This document shows positions 15,444-23,514 of a stretch of DNA of 25,186 nt, one piece after another. Within the stretch, counting starts at the first letter, position 1. The number at the start of each line of letters is the position of its first letter. Location of the stretch: the UHGV virus genome UHGV-1407433, one strand, 5' to 3'. The position numbers and the translations under genes were made by a program. The notes beneath the pieces were generated by a model, which saw nothing but the letters and a program-made list of their open reading frames with translations, was not told the DNA's origin and did not search any database. This DNA comes from a virus.

Positions 15444-17016
15444 CTTGCTCCTCCTCGTTTGATTTTTTCAGTCCAGCCTCAAAAGCGGCAGCGGCCCATC
15501 CCGGTGGTTTCAAACCCGCAGCACGACGCTCCATTGTTTCCCGGACCTGCTGGGCAAAAATCTCCTGATAATCATCACCGCGTTTGGCGCACTCTTTCTC
15601 ATACGTGCTGAGACCAGCCTCAATAAGCATGACGGCTTCCTGCACCTCTTTCAGCCCGTCAATCGCCATCCGGCCAGAGCCAATCCAGCTGGCGTTCCCC
15701 CAGGCTGTTCGAGCCTCCTGGAAACTGAAACGGGCTTTCGAAGGAAGCGTGACCACCCTTCTGGCAATTGCTTCTTCCAGCCAGCAAAGAAACATCTGGC
15801 AGGCCTGTCGGGACGCAACAAACTTGCGACGCCCCATAAAGTACGCCCAGGACTCGTTAGCACTTGCGCGTGCGGTCGAGTAGCTCATCTGCGAATAGTT
15901 TCGCGAAAGCTGCTCATACGACACACCAAGCCCAGCGGCAATATAACGCAGCAGGGACTGTTCAAAAGTCGAGTAGCCGTTATCGGTATCCTGCGCCGAC
16001 TGAAGGTTGAGAGAATCACCCGGCAACAGGTGTGGAACCCTTGCCCCACCCAGGCGAACCGGCGCAGCTGAGTAATAGGACGCCATTTCACCGAGCCAGC
16101 CCGTAAGTTTGCTCTGCTGCTCTTTATTATCCGCGCCGAGAATAAAGTCCATCGCCGATTGGGTATCCAGTTCACTCTCGATGGTAGCGGCATACATAGC
16201 CTTCACTATCGCGCTCTGGAGCTGGGTATTTTGCAGGGTATCGAGCATTTTCATCTGCTCCATCACGCTGTAAAACGCATTAGCCCCACGGGTCTGTCCA
16301 TCCTCCATCGGTTCGAATACATGGATAAACGAGGGGCGGCCACCAGGAAGCTCGCGCGGAATATAGGTCCAGTTCTGTGACATCCAACCGGGATATCCGT
16401 CGTCGCTGACGTAATATCCCAGCGCAGCACCACTATTATTGATTTTTACCCCAGCGCGACAGTTCCGGGTATCACCGATATTGTTTGGATTACTGACGCG
16501 CTTCGGACTGACCATTTTGAACTGAGTACGGAAAAGACGCGTTGAATCGCTGTCCCATGTCGCCTGCATGCATAATTCACCGTTAAACGCATGCATGGCC
16601 ACACCTTCACGGATCATCATCGTAAACGTTCGCTTACGCTCGGCATCAATCCCGCAAAAGTCGTCCTCGGCATACTCATTCCATGCAGCTTCCACATCCC
16701 GCGAGAATGCCCGTGAATCCTCCTCATTTATTCCCAGATAACGCCAGCTTGGTCGATAACTGAGTCTGAAAAATGACCCGACGATGTGGTCCTGGTGGAG
16801 CTGCACGGCGTTTGCCGCGTAGCCATTATTTCGCACCAGATCGTCAGCGCGGGCATTTCCGCGAGAATAGTTGGGTAGGAGTGCGGCATCTGCACTTTCA
16901 CTCGGCGGATTCCAGCCTCGCAGCTGCCCACCAAACCCGCCTCCACCGCCATGATATCCTGCGTATTCCCGAAGGGATGTTTTCCCGTCAGGTCCCACCA
17001 AAGATGGTATTTTCAT
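15424..17016 (-). CDS. B: portal protein B
   Basis: 530 aa, a lambda-type portal at the expected position between W and C, and close in size to lambda gpB. Confidence 0.95.
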
Positions 17017-19949: not shown

Positions 19950-20417
19950 TCATCGCAACAGCGCTGACCATATCGTGCCACCTGGCCGAAGACTCTTCTT
20001 CAGTTCCTCGGACACAACATCTGAGATCGCTTTTACCATTTCAGGGGATAGCTTCACGCCGGTCTTAATTTCGGGACAGATGCCAACATTGATGGCATAG
20101 CCTTTTCGTGGGTCGTTCTCTATCCGGCCAAACTGAATATTTACAGAGCCACCAATATAACCACCAGCAGGAACACCAAAGCGCGTATTCACCAGGTGCT
20201 TAATGGCGAACTCCTGCCCTTCAGCGGTCAGGAAGGTGTAATAATTTTCCTTTTGATACTCCGTCGCGGTATGGCGTGTTTCAGCGAATCCCAGCTCTAG
20301 AAGCTCAGCAGCACCAGATTTGGCTGGCAGATCACCAGACTGAAGCGCGCCACGGAAAAACAGCGCATACAGAACATCCGTCGCCGCGCCGGACAACGTG
20401 ATAATTTTATGACCCAT
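19950..20417 (-). CDS. hypothetical protein, the last gene before the right cos end
   Basis: 155 aa. ATG 20417 follows AAGGAA. I recognise no family. A short hairpin (GGACGT-TTAG-ACGTCC) follows the stop. Confidence 0.7.
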   Translation of the reverse strand: MGHKIITLSGAATDVLYALFFRGALQSGDLPAKSGAAELLELGFAETRHTATEYQKENYYTFLTAEGQEFAIKHLVNTRFGVPAGGYIGGSVNIQFGRIENDPRKGYAINVGICPEIKTGVKLSPEMVKAISDVVSEELKKSLRPGGTIWSALLR

Positions 20418-20436
20418 GATTTATTTCCTTTTAGGC

Positions 20437-20490
20437 GTGAGCCTGTCGCACGGCAAAGCCGCCGAAAGTTAACGGTTTGCCCAGGCTCAC
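20437..20490 (-). promoter_or_regulatory. structured leader (nested inverted repeats) upstream of the 155 aa gene
   Basis: GTGAGCCTG (20437..20445) pairs with CAGGCTCAC (20482..20490). Inside, GGCAAA pairs with TTTGCC. The structure ends about 19 nt before the ATG, with the SD just downstream of it. Confidence 0.4.
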
Positions 20491-20529
20491 AGCTGAAAGA
20501 CTTTCTACGATGTGCGCGTGCGATGCGCA

Positions 20530-20553
20530 TAAAAAAGCCGCGTGATGGCGGCT
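20530..20553 (-). terminator. intrinsic terminator (minus strand)
   Basis: On the minus strand, AGCCGC-CATCAC-GCGGCT is followed by TTTTTTAT. Confidence 0.7.
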
Positions 20554-20682
20554 ACTGTTTGAATATCAGGGTGTTGTTTCGTCTTAACCCTGGTTAATGT
20601 AGGCATTCAGCCCGTCGGTGGTGGGACACTGGCGCACTTAATAAAGAGTAATGGCTGATTACCTCAGAATAAGGAATCAAAA

Positions 20683-20943
20683 ATGTCAGAAGGTTTTGGT
20701 TTAAAAGAAAAGGTTGAGCAGTTAGAAAAAGAATTAGCCGTACAAAAAATAGCAAATCAGCTTGCTTTTGGAGCACTAATTAAAGCAGTTAATGAGCTGT
20801 ACCCGAACAAAGATTTATATGATGGGTTGACAAAATTTGTCCAGGAAAAACTTGATCCTGAACGTGTTAAAAACATCCCTAATCTTCACGAGGCCTTTCT
20901 AGAAGCTGCGAAAATACTGAGGACTGACGCATCTCCTGAATAA
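20683..20943 (+). CDS. hypothetical helical protein (86 aa), plus-strand accessory gene in an AT-rich island
   Basis: ATG 20683 follows AAGGA by 7 nt. It is the only convincing plus-strand gene in the island. An AAAGGCAGT / ACTGCCTTT inverted repeat (20954..20962 and 20997..21005) plus a T run lies downstream. I recognise no family. Confidence 0.6.
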   Translation: MSEGFGLKEKVEQLEKELAVQKIANQLAFGALIKAVNELYPNKDLYDGLTKFVQEKLDPERVKNIPNLHEAFLEAAKILRTDASPE

Positions 20944-21037
20944 TTTTATCAACAAAGGCAGTTGTGTCCTCTTGCTTTTCATTCACAATGCATGTGACTG
21001 CCTTTTCTAAAGCTGTAATTCGTTCTTCAAGTGTCAT
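20879..21037 (-). CDS. hypothetical small protein (52 aa), convergent with and overlapping the plus-strand gene
   Basis: ATG 21037 (MTLEERITALEKAVTCIVNEKQ...) follows AGGAG by 5 nt. Its 3' end overlaps the 3' end of 20683..20943 by 65 nt. The coding status of the overlapped tail is uncertain. Confidence 0.45.
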   Translation of the reverse strand: MTLEERITALEKAVTCIVNEKQEDTTAFVDKIIQEMRQSSVFSQLLERPRED

Positions 21038-21064
21038 ACCCACTCCTGTCATTGGCTTCAAAAT

Positions 21065-21139
21065 GATAAACCCCGCATTTGCAAGTCCTATTTATACCCC
21101 GCAGGGGATAAAAACCATATTATCCGCTTGCGGGGATAA
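21065..21139. repeat. palindrome cluster A: two TTATCCC..GGGATAA-type hairpins plus one half-site
   Basis: P1 at 21091..21113 is TTTATACCCC-GCA-GGGGATAAAA. P2 at 21120..21139 is TTATCCGCTTGCGGGGATAA. A half-site GATAAACCCCGC lies at 21065..21076. The cluster is related to cluster B at 22948..22997. Confidence 0.8.
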
Positions 21140-21177
21140 CCATTATCAAGCCCACCAGTAGATGGGCTTTGTAATGG

Positions 21178-21435
21178 CTACTTCGCTTTTGCTTCCGCTC
21201 GCTTACGCCGGCGCTCTTCTTTCCTCTCGGCTTTTGCCATGTCCATGAATGCCTGCATGATCGAGTTCCGCATCATGTAGCTAACAAAGTGATGATTGAC
21301 ACAGCCGTTGAGGCGCAGCTGCTCGCCAAACTCATCCACCGAGGCCAATGCTTCCATCATGCCCTTCTCGCCTTTCATGAACTCTGAGAAGTCGCGCCCC
21401 GCTCTGGAGGCGCATTCTATTATTCGGGTGCTCAT
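21178..21435 (-). CDS. hypothetical protein (85 aa) with basic C-terminal tail
   Basis: ATG 21435 lies 2 nt after the upstream gene's TGA (21440..21438). The protein is MSTRIIECASRAGRDFSEF...KAERKEERRRKRAEAKAK. A hairpin AAGCCCA/TGGGCTT (21148..21169) follows the stop. Confidence 0.65.
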   Translation of the reverse strand: MSTRIIECASRAGRDFSEFMKGEKGMMEALASVDEFGEQLRLNGCVNHHFVSYMMRNSIMQAFMDMAKAERKEERRRKRAEAKAK

Positions 21436-21437
21436 GA

Positions 21438-22166
21438 TCAGGCCGCCGCATAGAGCAATTTCATCTGCCCTTTCACCGGGAATGCCGACATGCAACGCGC
21501 TTCGAAATCACGATAATCAGAGCACCCATTGGCAATGCTGGTAACGGCAATGATCTGTCGCTCAACCAATGTCAGCGCGTCAGGTTTAAGGTGCTGATGG
21601 ATTTTGTCTCCCGCAGCCAGCCGTCTTTTAACCTCTGCATATACTTCTGGTGGTAATACCTGGCCATATACCCACTTGGCACTGATCATCCCAAATAGTG
21701 CGGGGCGACGACCTGGTCGATGACGGGGCAGCCCTGACATTTTGAACATCGCAGAATAAAACGGATCGCTAAACCTCTTTTCCCATGGCTGAGATTTATC
21801 CAGAAGGAAAATAGCCTTTATTCTTTCATCGTCGATATGATGAACGGAACCCTGAATGATTGCGTCAATTTGCTCATCACACCAGATCTCAAAATCTACA
21901 GAAAGCCATCGAGCAAATCTGACCGCCAGCTTTGGGTGAAGCCATGTTCCGCCGCCACGGTCTTTGCGAGCGCGGCTGGTTTTTACATATGTGATATTCC
22001 CATATCTACTCTTTAACGCCTCGATGTAACGGACAGTCTCAGGAAGCCTAAGCCACTGAGCCGGCTCCTTGTTGAACTTGTCAGCTGCCGCAGTCGCGTC
22101 AAACCAGCCATCGTCAGAAAAACGCATGGGATGGCCTTCGAAATCAATCGGGATGATATTGGACAT
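21438..22166 (-). CDS. KilA-N domain / P63C domain protein (antirepressor-like DNA-binding protein)
   Basis: The likely start is MSNIIPIDFEG at 22166. The N-terminal ...WFDATAAADKFNKEPAQWLRLPETVRYIEAL...GGGTWLHPKLAVRFARWLSVDFEIWCDEQI fits the KilA-N pattern. The C-terminal half (FSDPFYSAMFKMSGLPRHRPGRRPALFGMISAKWVYGQVLPPEVYAEVKRR) resembles the P63C family as I recall it. Confidence 0.8.
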   Translation of the reverse strand: MSNIIPIDFEGHPMRFSDDGWFDATAAADKFNKEPAQWLRLPETVRYIEALKSRYGNITYVKTSRARKDRGGGTWLHPKLAVRFARWLSVDFEIWCDEQIDAIIQGSVHHIDDERIKAIFLLDKSQPWEKRFSDPFYSAMFKMSGLPRHRPGRRPALFGMISAKWVYGQVLPPEVYAEVKRRLAAGDKIHQHLKPDALTLVERQIIAVTSIANGCSDYRDFEARCMSAFPVKGQMKLLYAAA

Positions 22167-22315
22167 CGTATTTACCTTTTTGGTGATATGAGCCAGTTCT
22201 CGCAGACATGGACAGCCCAAGAGCGGCACGATGTAAGCCACCGTCCTGTCTCTGTCTCATATCCCGAAAAGCTCTTGGTTGATATGCGCACGAGAATGCG
22301 CGGTTTACTGCGGAC

Positions 22316-22342
22316 ATAAAAAAGCCCCGCATAAGCGAGGCT
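22316..22342 (-). terminator. intrinsic terminator after the two-gene module
   Basis: On the minus strand, AGCCTCGC-TTAT-GCGGGGCT forms an 8 bp stem with one G-U pair, followed by TTTTTTAT. Confidence 0.75.
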
Positions 22343-22364
22343 AAATATCGAACAACTTCTTTTG

Positions 22365-22586
22365 TTAACTGCGCGTGAAGTTGTGGTGGATGAAGTCGTC
22401 AGAGCCTAACCGATGTGAGCCATAATGGGCTTCATAGCCCTCACCTAGTGAGGCTGCCTTAGTTTCGGCCACATCTTTGGTGGCGTAAACACCGACTAAA
22501 TGCCACGGGGCATTCCTTACAACCCCCCACCCCATAACCCAACCTATATTATCAAGGTCAGGCTTCAAGCCTTCTGCAACAAACAT
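22365..22586 (-). CDS. hypothetical protein (73 aa)
   Basis: ATG 22586 follows AAGGAG. The protein is MFVAEGLKPDLDNIGWVMGWGVVRNAPWHLVGVYATKDVAE... It is the second gene of a two-gene unit that ends at its own terminator. Confidence 0.65.
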   Translation of the reverse strand: MFVAEGLKPDLDNIGWVMGWGVVRNAPWHLVGVYATKDVAETKAASLGEGYEAHYGSHRLGSDDFIHHNFTRS

Positions 22587-22645
22587 ATTTATCTCCTTTG
22601 GGTACCCGGAGATAATGCTAAGCAATTGAAGCTGCAAAATAAATA

Positions 22646-22891
22646 CTATTCAACAAGCTCTGCTGTAATTGTTAACCAGCTCAAATCAGGCCGATCATGC
22701 ATCACATGTACAGCTGATTCATCAACATCGACAGCGTAAATTTTAGTGAAGGGATGGGAAGCTTTACCGGATAAAGAATCCTTCACTATCACACTTTCAT
22801 TCTGAATAACCTGGAATGTGACGTTTGCGGCTCGAACAATACCCTCGTAGTGCTCTTCAAGGTGAGCAATTGTAACTTTAACTTTTTTCAT
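22646..22891 (-). CDS. hypothetical protein (81 aa)
   Basis: ATG 22891 follows AAGGAG. The protein is MKKVKVTIAHLEEHYEGIVRAANVTFQVIQNESVIV... It is the first gene after palindrome cluster B. Confidence 0.65.
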   Translation of the reverse strand: MKKVKVTIAHLEEHYEGIVRAANVTFQVIQNESVIVKDSLSGKASHPFTKIYAVDVDESAVHVMHDRPDLSWLTITAELVE

Positions 22892-22947
22892 AGGCTGGCT
22901 CCTTGGCTGAATGGCAACAGGCATTAGGTGAGTGTCTGCTGTAACGC

Positions 22948-22997
22948 CTATCCCTTAGCGGGGATAATGGTTGCTTTATCCCTTGCTAGGGATAAAG
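22948..22997. repeat. palindrome cluster B: two TTATCCC..GGGATAA hairpins just after the Rz stop
   Basis: The element at 22974..22997 is CTTTATCCCT-TGCT-AGGGATAAAG, a perfect 10 bp stem. The element at 22948..22967 is CTATCCCTTAGCGGGGATAA. The AACCAT spacer is shared with cluster A in the opposite orientation. Confidence 0.8.
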
Positions 22998-22998
22998 A

Positions 22999-23514
22999 CT
23001 ATTGACGCTCGCTCTCTATTTGACGAATTCCAGCGAAATTGTTATTGCCCTTTTCAATCACGGCCAGCAGCGGCTTAATCCAGAGTACAGCCTGGCAGTA
23101 CGTTATTGAGCCGGCGGCAGCGGTACTATCATCGGCTGCGTCAGGTCCGTCGGTATCGGCGTGCATTGCGCTGGAACGTAAACGGTACGCGTATTCGAGC
23201 AGCCCACCAGCAATGTCAGCAGGAACAGGCAGATCACAGGTTTTTTCACGGCGGAGTATCTCCCGGTATTCAATTACGGTTTCTTCGGTGCTGGTGTCGA
23301 TCAGGGAGTTAAGCCTGTTGGCATGTTCTGCAACCTGATTGAATCGATTGAAGTTGAATGCCTGGGTGGCGATCACCTGCCCCTGCATAGAGTTGTCACT
23401 TCGCAGAACGTCGTTATCGCTCTGTAGGCTACTGGCGTCGGAGCAGCTCTTAACGAGAGCGACGGAAAGGCCAGCAATAACGACAACGCCGATAAGACCC
23501 GGATTAATTTTCAT
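22999..23514 (-). CDS. Rz: i-spanin Rz
   Basis: The start [21 protein letters not shown] at 23514 gives an N-terminal transmembrane domain and overlaps the endolysin stop as ATGA. The periplasmic part is coiled-coil, and the Rz1 frame is embedded. Confidence 0.9.
   Translation of the reverse strand: MKINPGLIGVVVIAGLSVALVKSCSDASSLQSDNDVLRSDNSMQGQVIATQAFNFNRFNQVAEHANRLNSLIDTSTEETVIEYREILRREKTCDLPVPADIAGGLLEYAYRLRSSAMHADTDGPDAADDSTAAAGSITYCQAVLWIKPLLAVIEKGNNNFAGIRQIESERQ
23103..23249 (-). CDS. Rz1: o-spanin Rz1 (lipoprotein) embedded in the +1 frame of Rz
   Basis: Absent from the ORF track (48 aa). The protein is (GTG)KKPVICLFLLTLLVGCSNTRTVYVPAQCTPIPTDLTQPMIVPLPPAQ*, with lipobox LLVGC and a Pro-rich mature part. 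The start is GTG 23249 or an upstream TTG. Confidence 0.8.
   Translation of the reverse strand: MKKPVICLFLLTLLVGCSNTRTVYVPAQCTPIPTDLTQPMIVPLPPAQ

What the first reader, a model, noticed from the sequence alone, without database searches (positions are those of the whole stretch)
21065..22997. Two clusters of TTATCCC..GGGATAA palindromes bracket a four-gene insert downstream of Rz
Four hairpin-capable palindromes share the half-site TTATCCC(C/T) / (A/G)GGGATAA and occur as two pairs. One pair starts 1 nt after the Rz stop (22948..22997). The other lies just beyond the hairpin that ends the 85 aa gene (21091..21139, with a half-site at 21065..21076). I saw the paired motif nowhere else in the window. 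The pairs share an AACCAT spacer in opposite orientation. Between them lie the 81 aa and 73 aa genes, a terminator, the KilA-N/P63C gene and the 85 aa gene. None of the hairpins has a U tract, so they are not simple terminators. Possible roles are module-boundary recombination sequences, operators for a dimeric DNA-binding protein (the KilA-N protein is the obvious candidate), or RNA-stabilising or processing hairpins. A speculative fourth idea rests on similarity to the type I-E CRISPR repeat GTGTTCCCCGCGCCAGCGGGGATAAACCG (recalled). GCGGGGATAA occurs at 21130..21139, AGCGGGGATAA at 22957..22967, and GGGGATAAAAACC at 21104..21116. This raises the possibility of solitary repeat-like RNA decoys. 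However, a 10-11-mer match to a 29-mer in about 50 kb of two-strand sequence is expected by chance roughly 0.2 to 1 times, and the stems here differ from the CRISPR stem.
Basis: partly seen in the sequence, partly recalled or inferred. Interest (0 to 1): 0.65.

Follow-up and report, generated by a model that had tools for sequence, protein, structure and literature searches.

The report
Phage-borne HipB antitoxin operator pairs
The four palindromes are two copies of the paired DNA site that the E. coli antitoxin HipB binds at its own promoter, here sitting without any hipBA genes in the late region of a lambda-like prophage. The same orphan site pair recurs in many temperate phages, which suggests that phages plug into, or disarm, the host's HipBA dormancy switch.

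Summary
There are four 20-nt palindromes (21092-21111, 21120-21139, 22948-22967, 22976-22995) and none elsewhere in the window.

- **Identity.** Each fits TATCC-N8-GGATA, the published operator consensus of the E. coli antitoxin/repressor HipB (3 exact, 1 with one mismatch; 0.02 exact expected). Each pair has the 10-bp gap (28-bp period) of hipBA operators O1-O2 and O3-O4.
- **Distribution.** In viral contigs, 112 of 113 new pair-bearing loci have no hipBA nearby, and 69 of 75 classifiable ones sit just downstream of the lysis cassette. HK97, mEp237 and mEp213 carry them too.
- **Properties.** There is no promoter and no phage HipB homologue. The half-site profile equals that of hipBA operators, and there is no extra hairpin complementarity.

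These are therefore orphan HipB operator pairs, most likely docking sites for host HipB (with HipA). What binding achieves is inferred, not shown: either sequestering and stabilising HipB-HipA, or HipB-gated control of neighbouring genes.

The "four-gene insert" is a mosaic of independent modules. The CRISPR, KilA-N and recombination-boundary readings are unsupported. I found no prior report, and the idea is testable in HK97 on E. coli K-12.

The parts
21092..21111 (.). Unit A1, TTATACCCCGCAGGGGATAA. HipB-operator-like 18-mer core at 21093-21110 with one mismatch (TATAC instead of TATCC).
   Evidence: The TATAC variant recurs in phage units (9 of 48) and in hipBA-adjacent units (16 of 356).
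21112..21119 (.). 8-nt spacer AAACCATA. This gives a 10-bp gap between the 18-mer cores and a 28-bp period.
   Evidence: Same spacing as E. coli O1-O2 and O3-O4.
21120..21139 (.). Unit A2, TTATCCGCTTGCGGGGATAA. Exact TATCC-N8-GGATA, and 17 of 20 identical to E. coli hipBA operator O1.
22948..22967 (.). Unit B1, CTATCCCTTAGCGGGGATAA. Exact TATCC-N8-GGATA, and 16 of 20 identical to O3 and to O2.
22968..22975 (.). 8-nt spacer TGGTTGCT.
22976..22995 (.). Unit B2, TTATCCCTTGCTAGGGATAA. Exact TATCC-N8-GGATA. It ends 3 nt before the Rz stop codon (22999-23001).
21137..21180 (-). Long imperfect hairpin (core stem 21148-21154 / 21163-21169) that directly precedes cluster A in the direction of late transcription. 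The composite of hairpin, GATAATGG and pair recurs in many other phage lineages. The crossover between the HK97-like and mEp213-like blocks lies here (21141-21176).
   Evidence: (I7)
22323..22342 (-). Intrinsic terminator that ends the 81-aa/73-aa gene pair following cluster B. It is a mosaic junction between the mEp237-like and HK97-like blocks. In about 11 other lineages the same terminator type follows the operator pair directly.
21054..21077 (.). Arm of a 24-nt inverted repeat with 21129-21152. It contains a degenerate copy of the A2 right half-site plus flank. It could be the remnant of a third site, but it is not a TATCC half-site.
   Evidence: I2, D14

Best explanation
Each cluster is an orphan HipB operator pair: two TATCC-N8-GGATA sites 10 bp apart, the same unit as O1-O2 and O3-O4 in the E. 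coli hipBA promoter. Here it has no hipBA genes and no promoter.

**Proposed mechanism**
1. Dimers of the host antitoxin/repressor HipB bind the two sites. HipA bound to HipB would be carried along.
2. The pair therefore acts as an extra docking platform on phage DNA, not as an RNA hairpin or a recombination site.
3. When the phage genome replicates, the number of platforms rises from 1-2 to hundreds per cell. HipB-HipA would then be held in the DNA-bound form, in which HipB is shielded from Lon protease and HipA is inactive.
4. This would keep HipA-driven dormancy from interrupting phage development. In a lysogen it would retune hipBA autoregulation.

**Shown here**
- The sequence, spacing and half-site profile match genuine hipBA operators.
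- The signature is specific for hipB loci in bacterial genomes.
- The pair recurs at accessory-gene positions in many temperate phages.
- There is no phage HipB homologue and no promoter.

**Inferred**
- That HipB actually binds these sites in vivo.
- That sequestration is the purpose.

**My estimates**
- HipB-type operator pair: about 0.85.
- Bound by host HipB: about 0.65.
- Main role is titration or sequestration rather than cis-regulation: about 0.35.
For: **Match to known HipB operators**
- Three units match the HipB consensus exactly and one has a single mismatch, against 0.02 exact expected.
- The consensus TATCCN8GGATA and the O1O2 oligonucleotide TTATCCGCTTAAGGGGATAT-TATAAGTT-TTATCCTTTAGTGAGGATAA (20+8+20) come from PMC3376134.
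- The MG1655 hipBA promoter shows two such 20+8+20 pairs. Operator gaps of 10, 21 and 10 bp are stated in PMC4150777.
- Unit A2 is 17 of 20 identical to O1.

**Specificity of the signature**
- A genome-contig scan for the strict pair returned 120 loci. Of these, 83 lie within 185 nt of a hipB homologue (36-95% identity, many Gammaproteobacteria), and 5 more have hipA or hipB nearby.
- The symmetrised half-site profile of 24 phage pairs equals that of 178 hipBA-adjacent pairs. This includes columns not fixed by any search pattern: col 7 C/G/T, col 8 C/T, col 9 T .67, A .19/.18, G .09, C .05/.06.
- In a scan that fixed only the inner halves, 22 of about 120 loci had complete outer halves as well. 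The split from chance hits was clean and bimodal.

**Distribution in phages**
- Among 113 new viral loci with the strict pair, only 1 is next to hipA.
- 75 have a recognisable lysis gene. In 69 of these the pair is downstream of the lysis cassette, and in 29 a packaging gene lies further on.
- There are 69 distinct 48-mers, in at least 4 endolysin and 3 terminase backgrounds. P2-like phages carry pairs too.
- HK97 and mEp237 each have exactly one pair in the whole genome, after the lysis genes.

**Who binds**
- No enterobacterial phage among 50,697 records encodes a HipB homologue at E<1e-3. HK97 has none even at E<=10.
- hipB plus its promoter is present in 5262 of 5426 complete E. coli genomes.
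- All 5 prophage-borne pairs found in the genome scan sit in genomes where the same scan also found a hipBA promoter pair.

**Not a promoter.** No sigma-70-like promoter overlaps either cluster.

**Published biochemistry that makes sequestration plausible**
- HipB binds O1O2 with Kd 0.6 nM. Operator DNA raises the half-life of HipB against Lon to more than 200 min.
- HipA is inhibited by HipB and by sequestration to the nucleoid.
- HipA dimerises with occluded active sites in HipA-HipB-DNA complexes.
- HipA-family kinases are validated anti-phage effectors.
- hipA7 persisters escape lambda prophage induction and suppress lytic gene expression.
Against: - No binding experiment exists for these sites.
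- The element is dispensable. Lambda, the K-12 Qin prophage, Salmonella phage Oslo and Enterobacter phage CobraSix lack it, and the last two even retain the conserved upstream flank.
- A1 carries a TATAC mismatch.
- The pairs sit inside the late operon, where a tightly bound protein could hinder transcription.
- E. coli hipBA itself has not been shown to restrict lambdoid phages. These phages do not shut off host transcription, so a need to neutralise HipA is an assumption.
- In roughly 30 of 69 lineages the pair ends 3-20 nt before a ribosome-binding site. That placement fits cis-regulation as well as or better than a pure decoy.
Counts are therefore samples with ascertainment bias, and the hosts of the IMG/VR contigs are unknown.
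Confidence: 0.6

Rival explanations
1. The sites are the same and the binder is the same (host HipB), but the purpose is cis-regulation. HipB bound to the pair would repress or roadblock transcription into the accessory genes just downstream. Examples are the 81-aa/73-aa pair after cluster B, the 52-aa gene after cluster A, and the MSDIYQ small gene or DinI-like gene in other phages. These genes would then be silent in a healthy lysogen. They would be released when HipB is degraded under stress, or titrated out by phage replication.
For: - Pairs are always intergenic.
- About 20 of 69 lineages have a Shine-Dalgarno sequence (AGAGG) and an ATG 10-12 nt after the pair, and several others have a start within 3-25 nt.
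- In P2-like phages the pair lies upstream of a DinI-like accessory gene.
- A hairpin or terminator often precedes the pair, as expected at the start of a new transcription unit.
- HipB is reported to repress promoters other than its own: relA, eutH and fadH (Lin et al. 2013, as summarised in PMC10305079).
Against: - No sigma-70-like promoter lies at or near either cluster.
- The downstream genes are unrelated from lineage to lineage.
- In about 11 lineages the pair lies between the Rz stop codon and an intrinsic terminator, with no gene to control.
- Six loci have the pair upstream of the lysis cassette instead.
Confidence: 0.3
2. The palindromes act as RNA hairpins in the late transcript. 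They would serve as stabilisers, processing sites or occluders of the ribosome-binding site, independent of any DNA-binding protein.
For: - Both clusters are transcribed as part of the late operon.
- Predicted folds are stable: z = -4.3 for cluster B and -6.6 for cluster A with its hairpin.
- In some lineages the right half-site supplies or abuts the Shine-Dalgarno sequence.
Against: - Conservation is of sequence, not of pairing. The outer half-sites are fixed.
- Inner stem positions are complementary in only 40-46% of phage units, no more than in hipBA operators (43-49%). C-A pairs are as common as U-G pairs.
- Mismatches such as A5-G16 and G7-G14 are conserved.
- The strict 10-bp gap and the identity with a known protein operator are not explained by this reading.
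- The hipBA operator DNA gives the same fold z-score, -4.15.
- There is no Rfam match.
Confidence: 0.07
3. The sites are operators for a phage-encoded protein. Candidates are KilA-N/P63C, the 155-aa phi80-like protein, or an unrecognised Xre-type regulator that happens to share HipB's specificity.
For: - A KilA-N gene lies between the clusters in this window.
- Homologues of the 155-aa protein lie about 230 nt downstream of the pair in one group of viral loci.
- mEp237 has an HTH protein with weak HipB similarity: 35% over 46 aa, E = 0.004 in a small database.
Against: - KilA-N is near the pair in only 2 of 113 loci.
- HK97 has a pair but no homologue of the 155-aa protein and no HipB-like ORF.
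- No enterobacterial phage has a HipB homologue at E<1e-3.
- No protein is common to the many lysis and terminase backgrounds that carry the pair.
Confidence: 0.08
4. The two clusters are the ends of a mobile or recombinational cassette: inverted repeats or linker sequences that bracket a four-gene insert.
For: - The clusters flank four accessory genes.
- They lie at a known hot spot for mosaicism.
- The HK97-like block starts 2 nt after unit A2.
Against: - Breakpoints map to the hairpin at 21141-21176 and the terminator at 22315-22342, not to the palindromes. Cluster B is internal to the mEp237-like block.
- mEp237, mEp213 and HK97 each have one pair with different or no cargo.
- The exact two-cluster arrangement occurs in 1 of 5426 E. 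coli genomes.
- Both clusters have the same unit order, so they are not inverted ends.
- Shared identity is at most 8 contiguous bases, too little for homologous exchange.
- There are no target-site duplications.
Confidence: 0.03
5. The units are solitary CRISPR type I-E repeat-like units that act as RNA decoys for Cas6e or Cascade.
For: There are 10-13-nt matches (GCGGGGATAA, AGCGGGGATAA, GGGGATAAAAACC) to the 3' part of the E. coli I-E repeat.
Against: - No CRISPR-DR family or any other Rfam hit falls on the clusters at E<=10.
- Over the whole 29-mer the clusters are not among the window's best matches, which reach 17/29 at unrelated sites.
- The stems differ.
- The repeat-sense strand is antisense to late transcription.
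- The shared GGGGATAA is fully accounted for by the HipB half-site.
Confidence: 0.01

Closest known systems
E. coli hipBA operators O1-O4 (Black et al. 1994; Schumacher et al. 2009, 2015; Hansen et al. 2012, PMC3376134)
   Same: - The same 18-bp palindrome, TATCC-N8-GGATA.
- The same extended half-site preferences (T/A before TATCC, then C, C/T, T after it).
- The same pairwise arrangement with a 10-bp gap (28-bp period).
- Up to 17 of 20 identity per unit.
   Different: - One pair per site instead of two pairs.
- No -35/-10 promoter.
- No hipB or hipA downstream.
- Located in the late region of temperate phages.
Extra-operon HipB sites in the E. coli chromosome (relA, eutH, fadH; Lin et al. 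2013, known to me only through reviews)
   Same: HipB palindromes away from hipBA, so there is precedent for HipB acting at other loci.
   Different: - As summarised, those are palindromes upstream of host genes with reported repression; pairing is not mentioned there.
- The phage elements are full two-operator units without a recognisable promoter, carried on mobile DNA.
Phage countermeasures against toxin-antitoxin systems and nucleic-acid decoys: T4 Dmd, the T7 Gp4.5 Lon inhibitor, pseudo-ToxI RNA, RNA anti-CRISPRs (from my own knowledge, not checked here)
   Same: If the sequestration reading is right, the logic is the same: keep the antitoxin present or the effector occupied, so that infection does not trigger the toxin.
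   Different: Those are proteins or RNAs. Here the agent would be a protein-free stretch of double-stranded DNA that borrows the host's own antitoxin. None of this has been tested.
Morons of lambdoid phages (Juhala et al. 2000; PMC3594210)
   Same: - The same genomic niches: after Rz, between Q and S, and at P2 accessory-gene sites.
- Presence/absence polymorphism between close relatives.
- Frequent flanking terminators.
   Different: A moron is a promoter, a gene and a terminator. This element is only a protein-binding site.

Membership tests
HipB operator (hipBA O1-O4 type) | 18-bp palindrome TATCC-N8-GGATA | tested here: met
   A2, B1 and B2 are exact; A1 has one mismatch (TATAC). About 0.02 exact matches are expected in the window. 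Consensus from PMC3376134.
HipB operator (hipBA O1-O4 type) | Operators arranged in pairs 10 bp apart (28-bp period), as in O1-O2 and O3-O4 | tested here: met
   Unit starts are 28 nt apart: 21092/21120 and 22948/22976. The MG1655 promoter and the literature give the same spacing.
HipB operator (hipBA O1-O4 type) | Extended half-site preferences outside the fixed pentamers | tested here: met
   The column-by-column profile of 24 phage pairs matches that of 178 hipBA-adjacent pairs.
HipB operator (hipBA O1-O4 type) | Lies upstream of hipB and overlaps the hipBA promoter (autoregulation) | tested here: not met
   There is no hipB or hipA in the window or next to 112 of 113 viral pairs. No promoter-like site overlaps the clusters. 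Hence 'orphan' operator pairs.
HipB operator (hipBA O1-O4 type) | Bound by HipB dimers, with HipA as co-repressor | not testable with these tools
   Needs EMSA, fluorescence polarisation or ChIP. Indirect support: hipB is in 97% of E. coli genomes, and hipBA co-occurs in 5 of 5 genomes with a prophage-borne pair.
CRISPR type I-E repeat / solitary repeat unit (RNA anti-CRISPR) | Similarity over the whole 28-29-nt repeat, including the Cas6e stem-loop | tested here: not met
   No Rfam CRISPR-DR hit at E<=10. The clusters are not among the best matches to the 29-mer, which reach 17/29 elsewhere.
Intrinsic (Rho-independent) terminator | GC-rich stem followed by a T/U tract | tested here: not met
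   The terminator scan finds sites at 22342-22323, 20553-20536 and 21085-21072, but none at the palindromes. No T tract follows any unit.
Transposon or MITE-like element with terminal inverted repeats | Inverted ends bounding a unit that moves as a whole, with target-site duplication and empty sites | tested here: not met
   Both clusters have the same unit order. The cargo is a mosaic of mEp237-like and HK97-like modules with breakpoints outside the palindromes. Relatives carry single pairs.
Operator of the adjacent KilA-N/P63C protein | Co-occurrence of the site with the gene of its binding protein | tested here: not met
   A KilA-N homologue lies near the pair in 2 of 113 viral loci. mEp237 and mEp213 show a pair in this region with no KilA-N hit nearby.
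Small-terminase recognition site (cosB-like) | Lies at the terminase binding position next to cos | tested here: not met
   The HK97 small terminase binds +15 to +29 from the cos cut (PMC11331095). The HK97 pair is about 790-835 bp before the right genome end (record 38898-38943 of 39732). In the window the pairs lie 1.4 and 3.3 kb from the Nu1 gene.

The most novel reading that the evidence does not exclude
Temperate phages of enterobacteria carry a protein-free, DNA-only counter-measure against a toxin-antitoxin system. Promoter-less copies of the host's own HipB operator pair would, once amplified by phage replication, capture HipB-HipA. In the DNA-bound form HipB is shielded from Lon and HipA's active sites are occluded. 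HipA-triggered dormancy or abortive infection would then be unable to stall prophage induction or lytic growth. A corollary is that hipBA has an anti-phage role that phages have evolved to neutralise.
Probability: 0.3. Interest if true: 0.9.

Novelty: new variant of a known kind. Interest (0 to 1): 0.75.

Why it matters
hipBA was the first persistence locus discovered, yet its natural role is still debated. Finding its operator pair without the genes, conserved at accessory positions in many temperate phages, links the HipBA switch directly to phage biology. The carriers span several lambdoid lysis and terminase types, the model phage HK97, and P2-like phages.

- **Concrete experiments.** The finding can be tested with standard strains (HK97 or mEp phages on K-12, with delta-hipBA and hipA7 hosts).
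- **If the sites sequester HipB-HipA.** They would be the first example I know of a DNA decoy used by a phage against a toxin-antitoxin system.
- **If the sites gate phage genes.** They would show prophages reading the host's antitoxin level as a stress signal.
- **Beyond phages.** About 27 orphan pairs in bacterial chromosomes suggest a HipB regulon, or a set of HipA parking sites, wider than currently described.

Tried and rejected
- **Literal sequence search of papers** (GGGGATAA, TTATCCCC and similar): only irrelevant hits.
- **Rfam**, E-value mode on 20500-23500 and gathering mode on the window plus four loci: nothing on the clusters. The weak sRNA hits at 22312-22463 are just the terminator.
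- **CRISPR I-E repeat**: rejected.
- **KilA-N as binder**: rejected on co-occurrence.
- **155-aa phi80-like protein as binder**: no Pfam family, absent from HK97.
- **Small-terminase site**: rejected for HK97.
- **DnaA box, Fur box, REP/BIME, IS200/IS605 ends**: considered from memory and dropped once the HipB match was found. Not formally tested.
- **Promoter scan**: no promoter at the clusters.
- **Conserved -10 register in hipB-proximal pairs**: I looked for one to contrast with the phage spacers, but the register is not conserved even among hipBA loci, so the test was uninformative.
- **Shewanella-type HipB operators** (GTGTA-N6-TACAC, about 34-bp gaps) in viral contigs, as a test of co-variation with host HipB specificity: 20 hits, mostly coding repeats. 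Inconclusive.
- **Lambda and the K-12 Qin prophage**: no pair.
- **BLAST of the clusters against phages and E. coli genomes**: finds only near-identical copies, because only the half-sites are conserved. Pattern scans were needed instead.
- **Literature check**: searches for HipB together with HK97, HK022, lambdoid, prophage, or 'HipB operator / regulon / binding sites' found no report of phage-borne HipB sites in the held library.

Full report
**1.
Region 20700-23300 contains four 20-nt imperfect palindromes:
- A1 21092-21111 TTATACCCCGCAGGGGATAA
- A2 21120-21139 TTATCCGCTTGCGGGGATAA
- B1 22948-22967 CTATCCCTTAGCGGGGATAA
- B2 22976-22995 TTATCCCTTGCTAGGGATAA

A scan for this kind of unit finds them only there in the 25-kb window, apart from one weak look-alike at 16127. 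GGGATAA/TTATCCC occurs 7 times in the window, 5 of them in the clusters. Shuffles give a mean of 2.4, and 1 of 100 reaches 7.

**2. Gene context.**
The window is the late region of a lambdoid prophage, read on the minus strand. The order is:
- methylase, holin, lysozyme, Rz (stop codon 22999-23001)
- cluster B
- an 81-aa gene and a 73-aa gene, then a terminator (22323-22342)
- KilA-N/P63C, then an 85-aa gene, then a hairpin (21148-21169)
- cluster A
- a 52-aa gene, a 155-aa phi80-like gene, Nu1 and the large terminase

The window is 100% identical to a prophage of E. coli O68:H12 strain 97.3 (NZ_CP061758.1).

**3. The "four-gene insert" is a mosaic, not a unit.**
- 22315-23600 matches mEp237.
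- 21141-22342 matches HK97, mEp234 and HK022 (KilA-N plus the 85-aa gene).
- 20600-21176 matches mEp213 and mEp043.

The overlaps, and therefore the crossovers, lie in the terminator and in the hairpin, not in the palindromes. Cluster B is internal to the mEp237-like block. Cluster A belongs to the mEp213-like block.

Each relative has a single pair:
- mEp237 directly after Rz, followed by the same two small genes.
- mEp213 about 190 nt after Rz, with no cargo between.
- HK97 further downstream, after KilA-N and the next gene.

Whole-genome scans of HK97 and mEp237 find exactly one pair each. The two-cluster arrangement occurs in 1 of 5426 complete E. coli genomes. Both clusters have the same unit order (a TATAC- or CTATCC-type unit, then a TATCC-type unit on the plus strand), so they are not inverted ends.

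**4. Identification.**
Every unit fits T-TATCC-N8-GGATA-A. TATCCN8GGATA is the published consensus of the operators bound by the antitoxin/repressor HipB in the E. coli hipBA promoter. The O1O2 oligonucleotide used for binding studies is TTATCCGCTTAAGGGGATAT-TATAAGTT-TTATCCTTTAGTGAGGATAA, which is again 20 + 8 + 20 (PMC3376134).

I read the MG1655 promoter directly. It contains:
- O4 TTATCCGCGATCGCGGATAT, 8 nt, O3 TTATCCCGTAGAGCGGATAA
- 19 nt
- O2 TTATCCTCACTAAAGGATAA, 8 nt, O1 ATATCCCCTTAAGCGGATAA

PMC4150777 states the operator gaps as 10, 21 and 10 bp. In the window, three units match the consensus exactly and A1 has one mismatch, against 0.02 exact matches expected. A2 is 17 of 20 identical to O1, and B1 is 16 of 20 identical to O3 and to O2. 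Each cluster is therefore, in both sequence and geometry, an O1-O2-type operator pair.

**5. How specific is this signature?**
- 83 lie within 185 nt of a hipB homologue (36-95% identity to E. coli HipB), usually with hipA following. They come from Escherichia, Klebsiella, Enterobacter, Pantoea, Serratia, Vibrio, Halomonas, Psychromonas and others.
- 5 more have hipA or hipB nearby.
- Of the remaining 32, five are prophage late regions (L153, L193, L205, L220, L225).
- About 27 are "orphan" intergenic pairs.

The pair is thus a good marker for HipB-family operators.

**6. Phages carry it widely.**
- A first viral scan fixed only the inner halves (GGGGATAA-N8-TTATCC). Its hits split cleanly into about 22 loci with complete outer halves as well and about 100 chance hits.
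Of 113 new loci, only one is next to hipA, and that one looks like host DNA.
- 75 loci have a recognisable lysis gene. The pair is downstream of the lysis cassette in 69 of them, with a packaging gene further on in 29. It is upstream of the cassette in 6.
- There are 69 distinct 48-mers. N8, spacer and flanks all vary. The backgrounds include at least four endolysin types and lambda-like, HK97-like and other terminases.
- P2-like phages have pairs between the replication gene and a DinI-like gene, or next to ogr/int.
- Lambda, the K-12 Qin prophage, Salmonella phage Oslo and Enterobacter phage CobraSix have none. The last two keep the conserved upstream flank, so they are natural "empty sites".

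The pair therefore behaves like an accessory, moron-like element made only of a binding site.

**7. A DNA site rather than an RNA hairpin.**
- The symmetrised half-site profile of 24 phage pairs matches that of 178 hipBA-adjacent pairs column by column. This includes positions no search pattern fixed. Column 9, for example, is T .67, A .19/.18, G .09, C .05/.06.
- Inner stem positions are complementary in only 40-46% of phage units, against 43-49% in hipBA operators. C-A is as frequent as U-G, and some mismatches are conserved.
- Predicted RNA folds are stable (z = -4.3 and -6.6), but the hipBA operator DNA gives z = -4.15. Stability is therefore a by-product of palindromic operators.
- Rfam finds nothing.

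**8. Who binds?**
- No enterobacterial phage among 50,697 records encodes a HipB homologue at E<1e-3. HK97 has none even at E<=10, and it has no homologue of the 155-aa protein.
- KilA-N accompanies the pair in only 2 of 113 loci.
- The HK97 small terminase binds elsewhere.
- hipB with its promoter is present in 5262 of 5426 E. coli genomes.
- All five genomes with a prophage-borne pair in the genome scan also gave a hipBA promoter pair in the same scan.

Host HipB is the economical candidate. This is inference, since no binding was measured.

**9. What would binding achieve?**
There is no promoter at the clusters. In about 11 lineages the pair sits between Rz and a terminator with nothing to control. 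The downstream genes also differ between lineages. These points favour a context-independent docking platform.

Published biochemistry makes sequestration plausible:
- HipB binds O1O2 with Kd 0.6 nM, and operator DNA protects HipB from Lon, raising its half-life above 200 min.
- HipA's active sites are occluded in HipA-HipB-DNA assemblies.
- HipA-family kinases are validated anti-phage effectors.
- hipA7 persisters escape lambda prophage induction and suppress lytic gene expression.

On the other side, in about 30 lineages the pair ends 3-20 nt before a ribosome-binding site. It is often preceded by a hairpin or terminator. HipB is also reported to repress other promoters. HipB-gated control of neighbouring accessory genes therefore remains a serious alternative.

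My estimates are:
- HipB-type operator pair: about 0.85.
- Bound by host HipB: about 0.65.
- Sequestration as the main role: about 0.35.
- Cis-regulation as the main role: about 0.3.

**10.
The CRISPR I-E resemblance is explained by the half-site GGGGATAA. Over the whole 29-mer the clusters are not among the window's best matches, and no CRISPR-DR model hits. The AACCAT/ATGGTT spacer coincidence is real but short. AACCAT occurs 5 times in the window.

**11. Novelty and limits.**
Searches of the held literature found nothing on HipB sites in phages. The library is incomplete. In particular, I know Lin et al. 2013 and Black et al. 1994 only through citing papers.

Both collection scans were capped at 120 rows and used strict patterns, so all counts are samples with ascertainment bias. 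IMG/VR hosts are unknown. I did not verify hipBA in strain 97.3 itself.

Noticed in passing
Loci L149, L150, L239 (Pantoea; 'Pseudomonas silvicola' plasmid); L203, L232 (Serratia); L234, L237 (Alteromonas); L151, L161, L162, L238 (Aliivibrio); L167, L198, L211 and others: About 27 strict HipB-type operator pairs lie in bacterial chromosomes far from any detectable hipBA and outside recognisable prophages. Some sit at the same intergenic position in related species, for example next to accB/accC-like genes. In several cases the same genome also has hipBA (L238 with L148, L194 with L195). This suggests a wider set of orphan HipB sites than the literature describes.
   Followed up: partly
L260, L271, L291, L292, L306, L309, L338, L360 (pair positions as); L313 7786-7831: P2-like phage contigs carry the same operator pair. 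It lies between the 813-aa replication gene and a DinI-like small gene (MRVEIMIDKEQ...), and in L313 between an Ogr-like zinc-finger gene and the integrase. The element is therefore not restricted to lambdoid phages.
   Followed up: partly
window 20418-20600 (minus strand), with terminator 20536-20553; same sequence in L001 757-900, L023, L027, L032, L006, L074: A conserved non-coding leader follows a terminator and precedes different genes in different phages: the 155-aa phi80-like gene, a 273-aa gene, an HNH gene. ORF lists show it as a spurious 'MRIARAH...' reading frame. Rfam gives only a weak isrK-like hit at 20531-20611 (17.6 bits against a gathering score of 50).
   Followed up: partly
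window 19950-20417 (minus strand): The 155-aa protein has no Pfam family. Its N-terminal ~80 residues recur in several PHROGs (16910, 17079, 4365) joined to different C-terminal parts. Homologues sit about 230 nt downstream of the operator pair in one group of viral loci. Function unknown.
   Followed up: partly
window 20683-20943 (+) and 20879-21037 (-): Two overlapping antisense ORFs (86 aa and 52 aa) are both annotated in mEp213 (gp72, gp71), and each has its own PHROG. Only one is likely to be real, or they form a sense/antisense pair.
   Followed up: no
window 21137-21180; viral loci L252, L262, L265, L268, L273, L279, L290, L310, L312, L316, L328, L351, L359: A long imperfect hairpin ending in GATAATGG directly precedes the operator pair in many otherwise different lineages. 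A second recurrent upstream motif is ATCACCATGGGCAGnCTCATCGTAATGGC. The role of these partners is unknown.
   Followed up: partly
L220 306-524; L307 376-561; L352 3118-3315; about 20 of 69 viral lineages: A small conserved gene (MSDIYQITLTT..., 61-72 aa) starts 10-12 nt after the operator pair in about 20 of the 69 distinct lineages. It is the most frequent immediate downstream neighbour. Function unknown.
   Followed up: no
L006 4643-4846 (minus strand): Phage SaltyDalty has a full-length match to the Rfam sRNA family STnc100 (59.3 bits, gathering score 47) upstream of its lysis genes. The window has only the terminator part (22312-22381, 18.8 bits).
   Followed up: no
L023 5101-6558; L027 4113-5573; L006 133-1590 and many viral loci: A 485-aa GT2-like 'glycosyltransferase' gene sits between the lysis and packaging modules in many of these phages, often just after the operator pair and an HNH or 155-aa-like gene. 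This is an unexpected place for such an enzyme.
   Followed up: no
H62-H64 (E. coli strains ECCRA-119, YZMc10-2, ES6): Variants of this prophage region carry an 'SDH family Clp fold serine proteinase' gene inserted between the KilA-N module and the mEp237-like module. This is further evidence that the site is a cargo hot spot.
   Followed up: no
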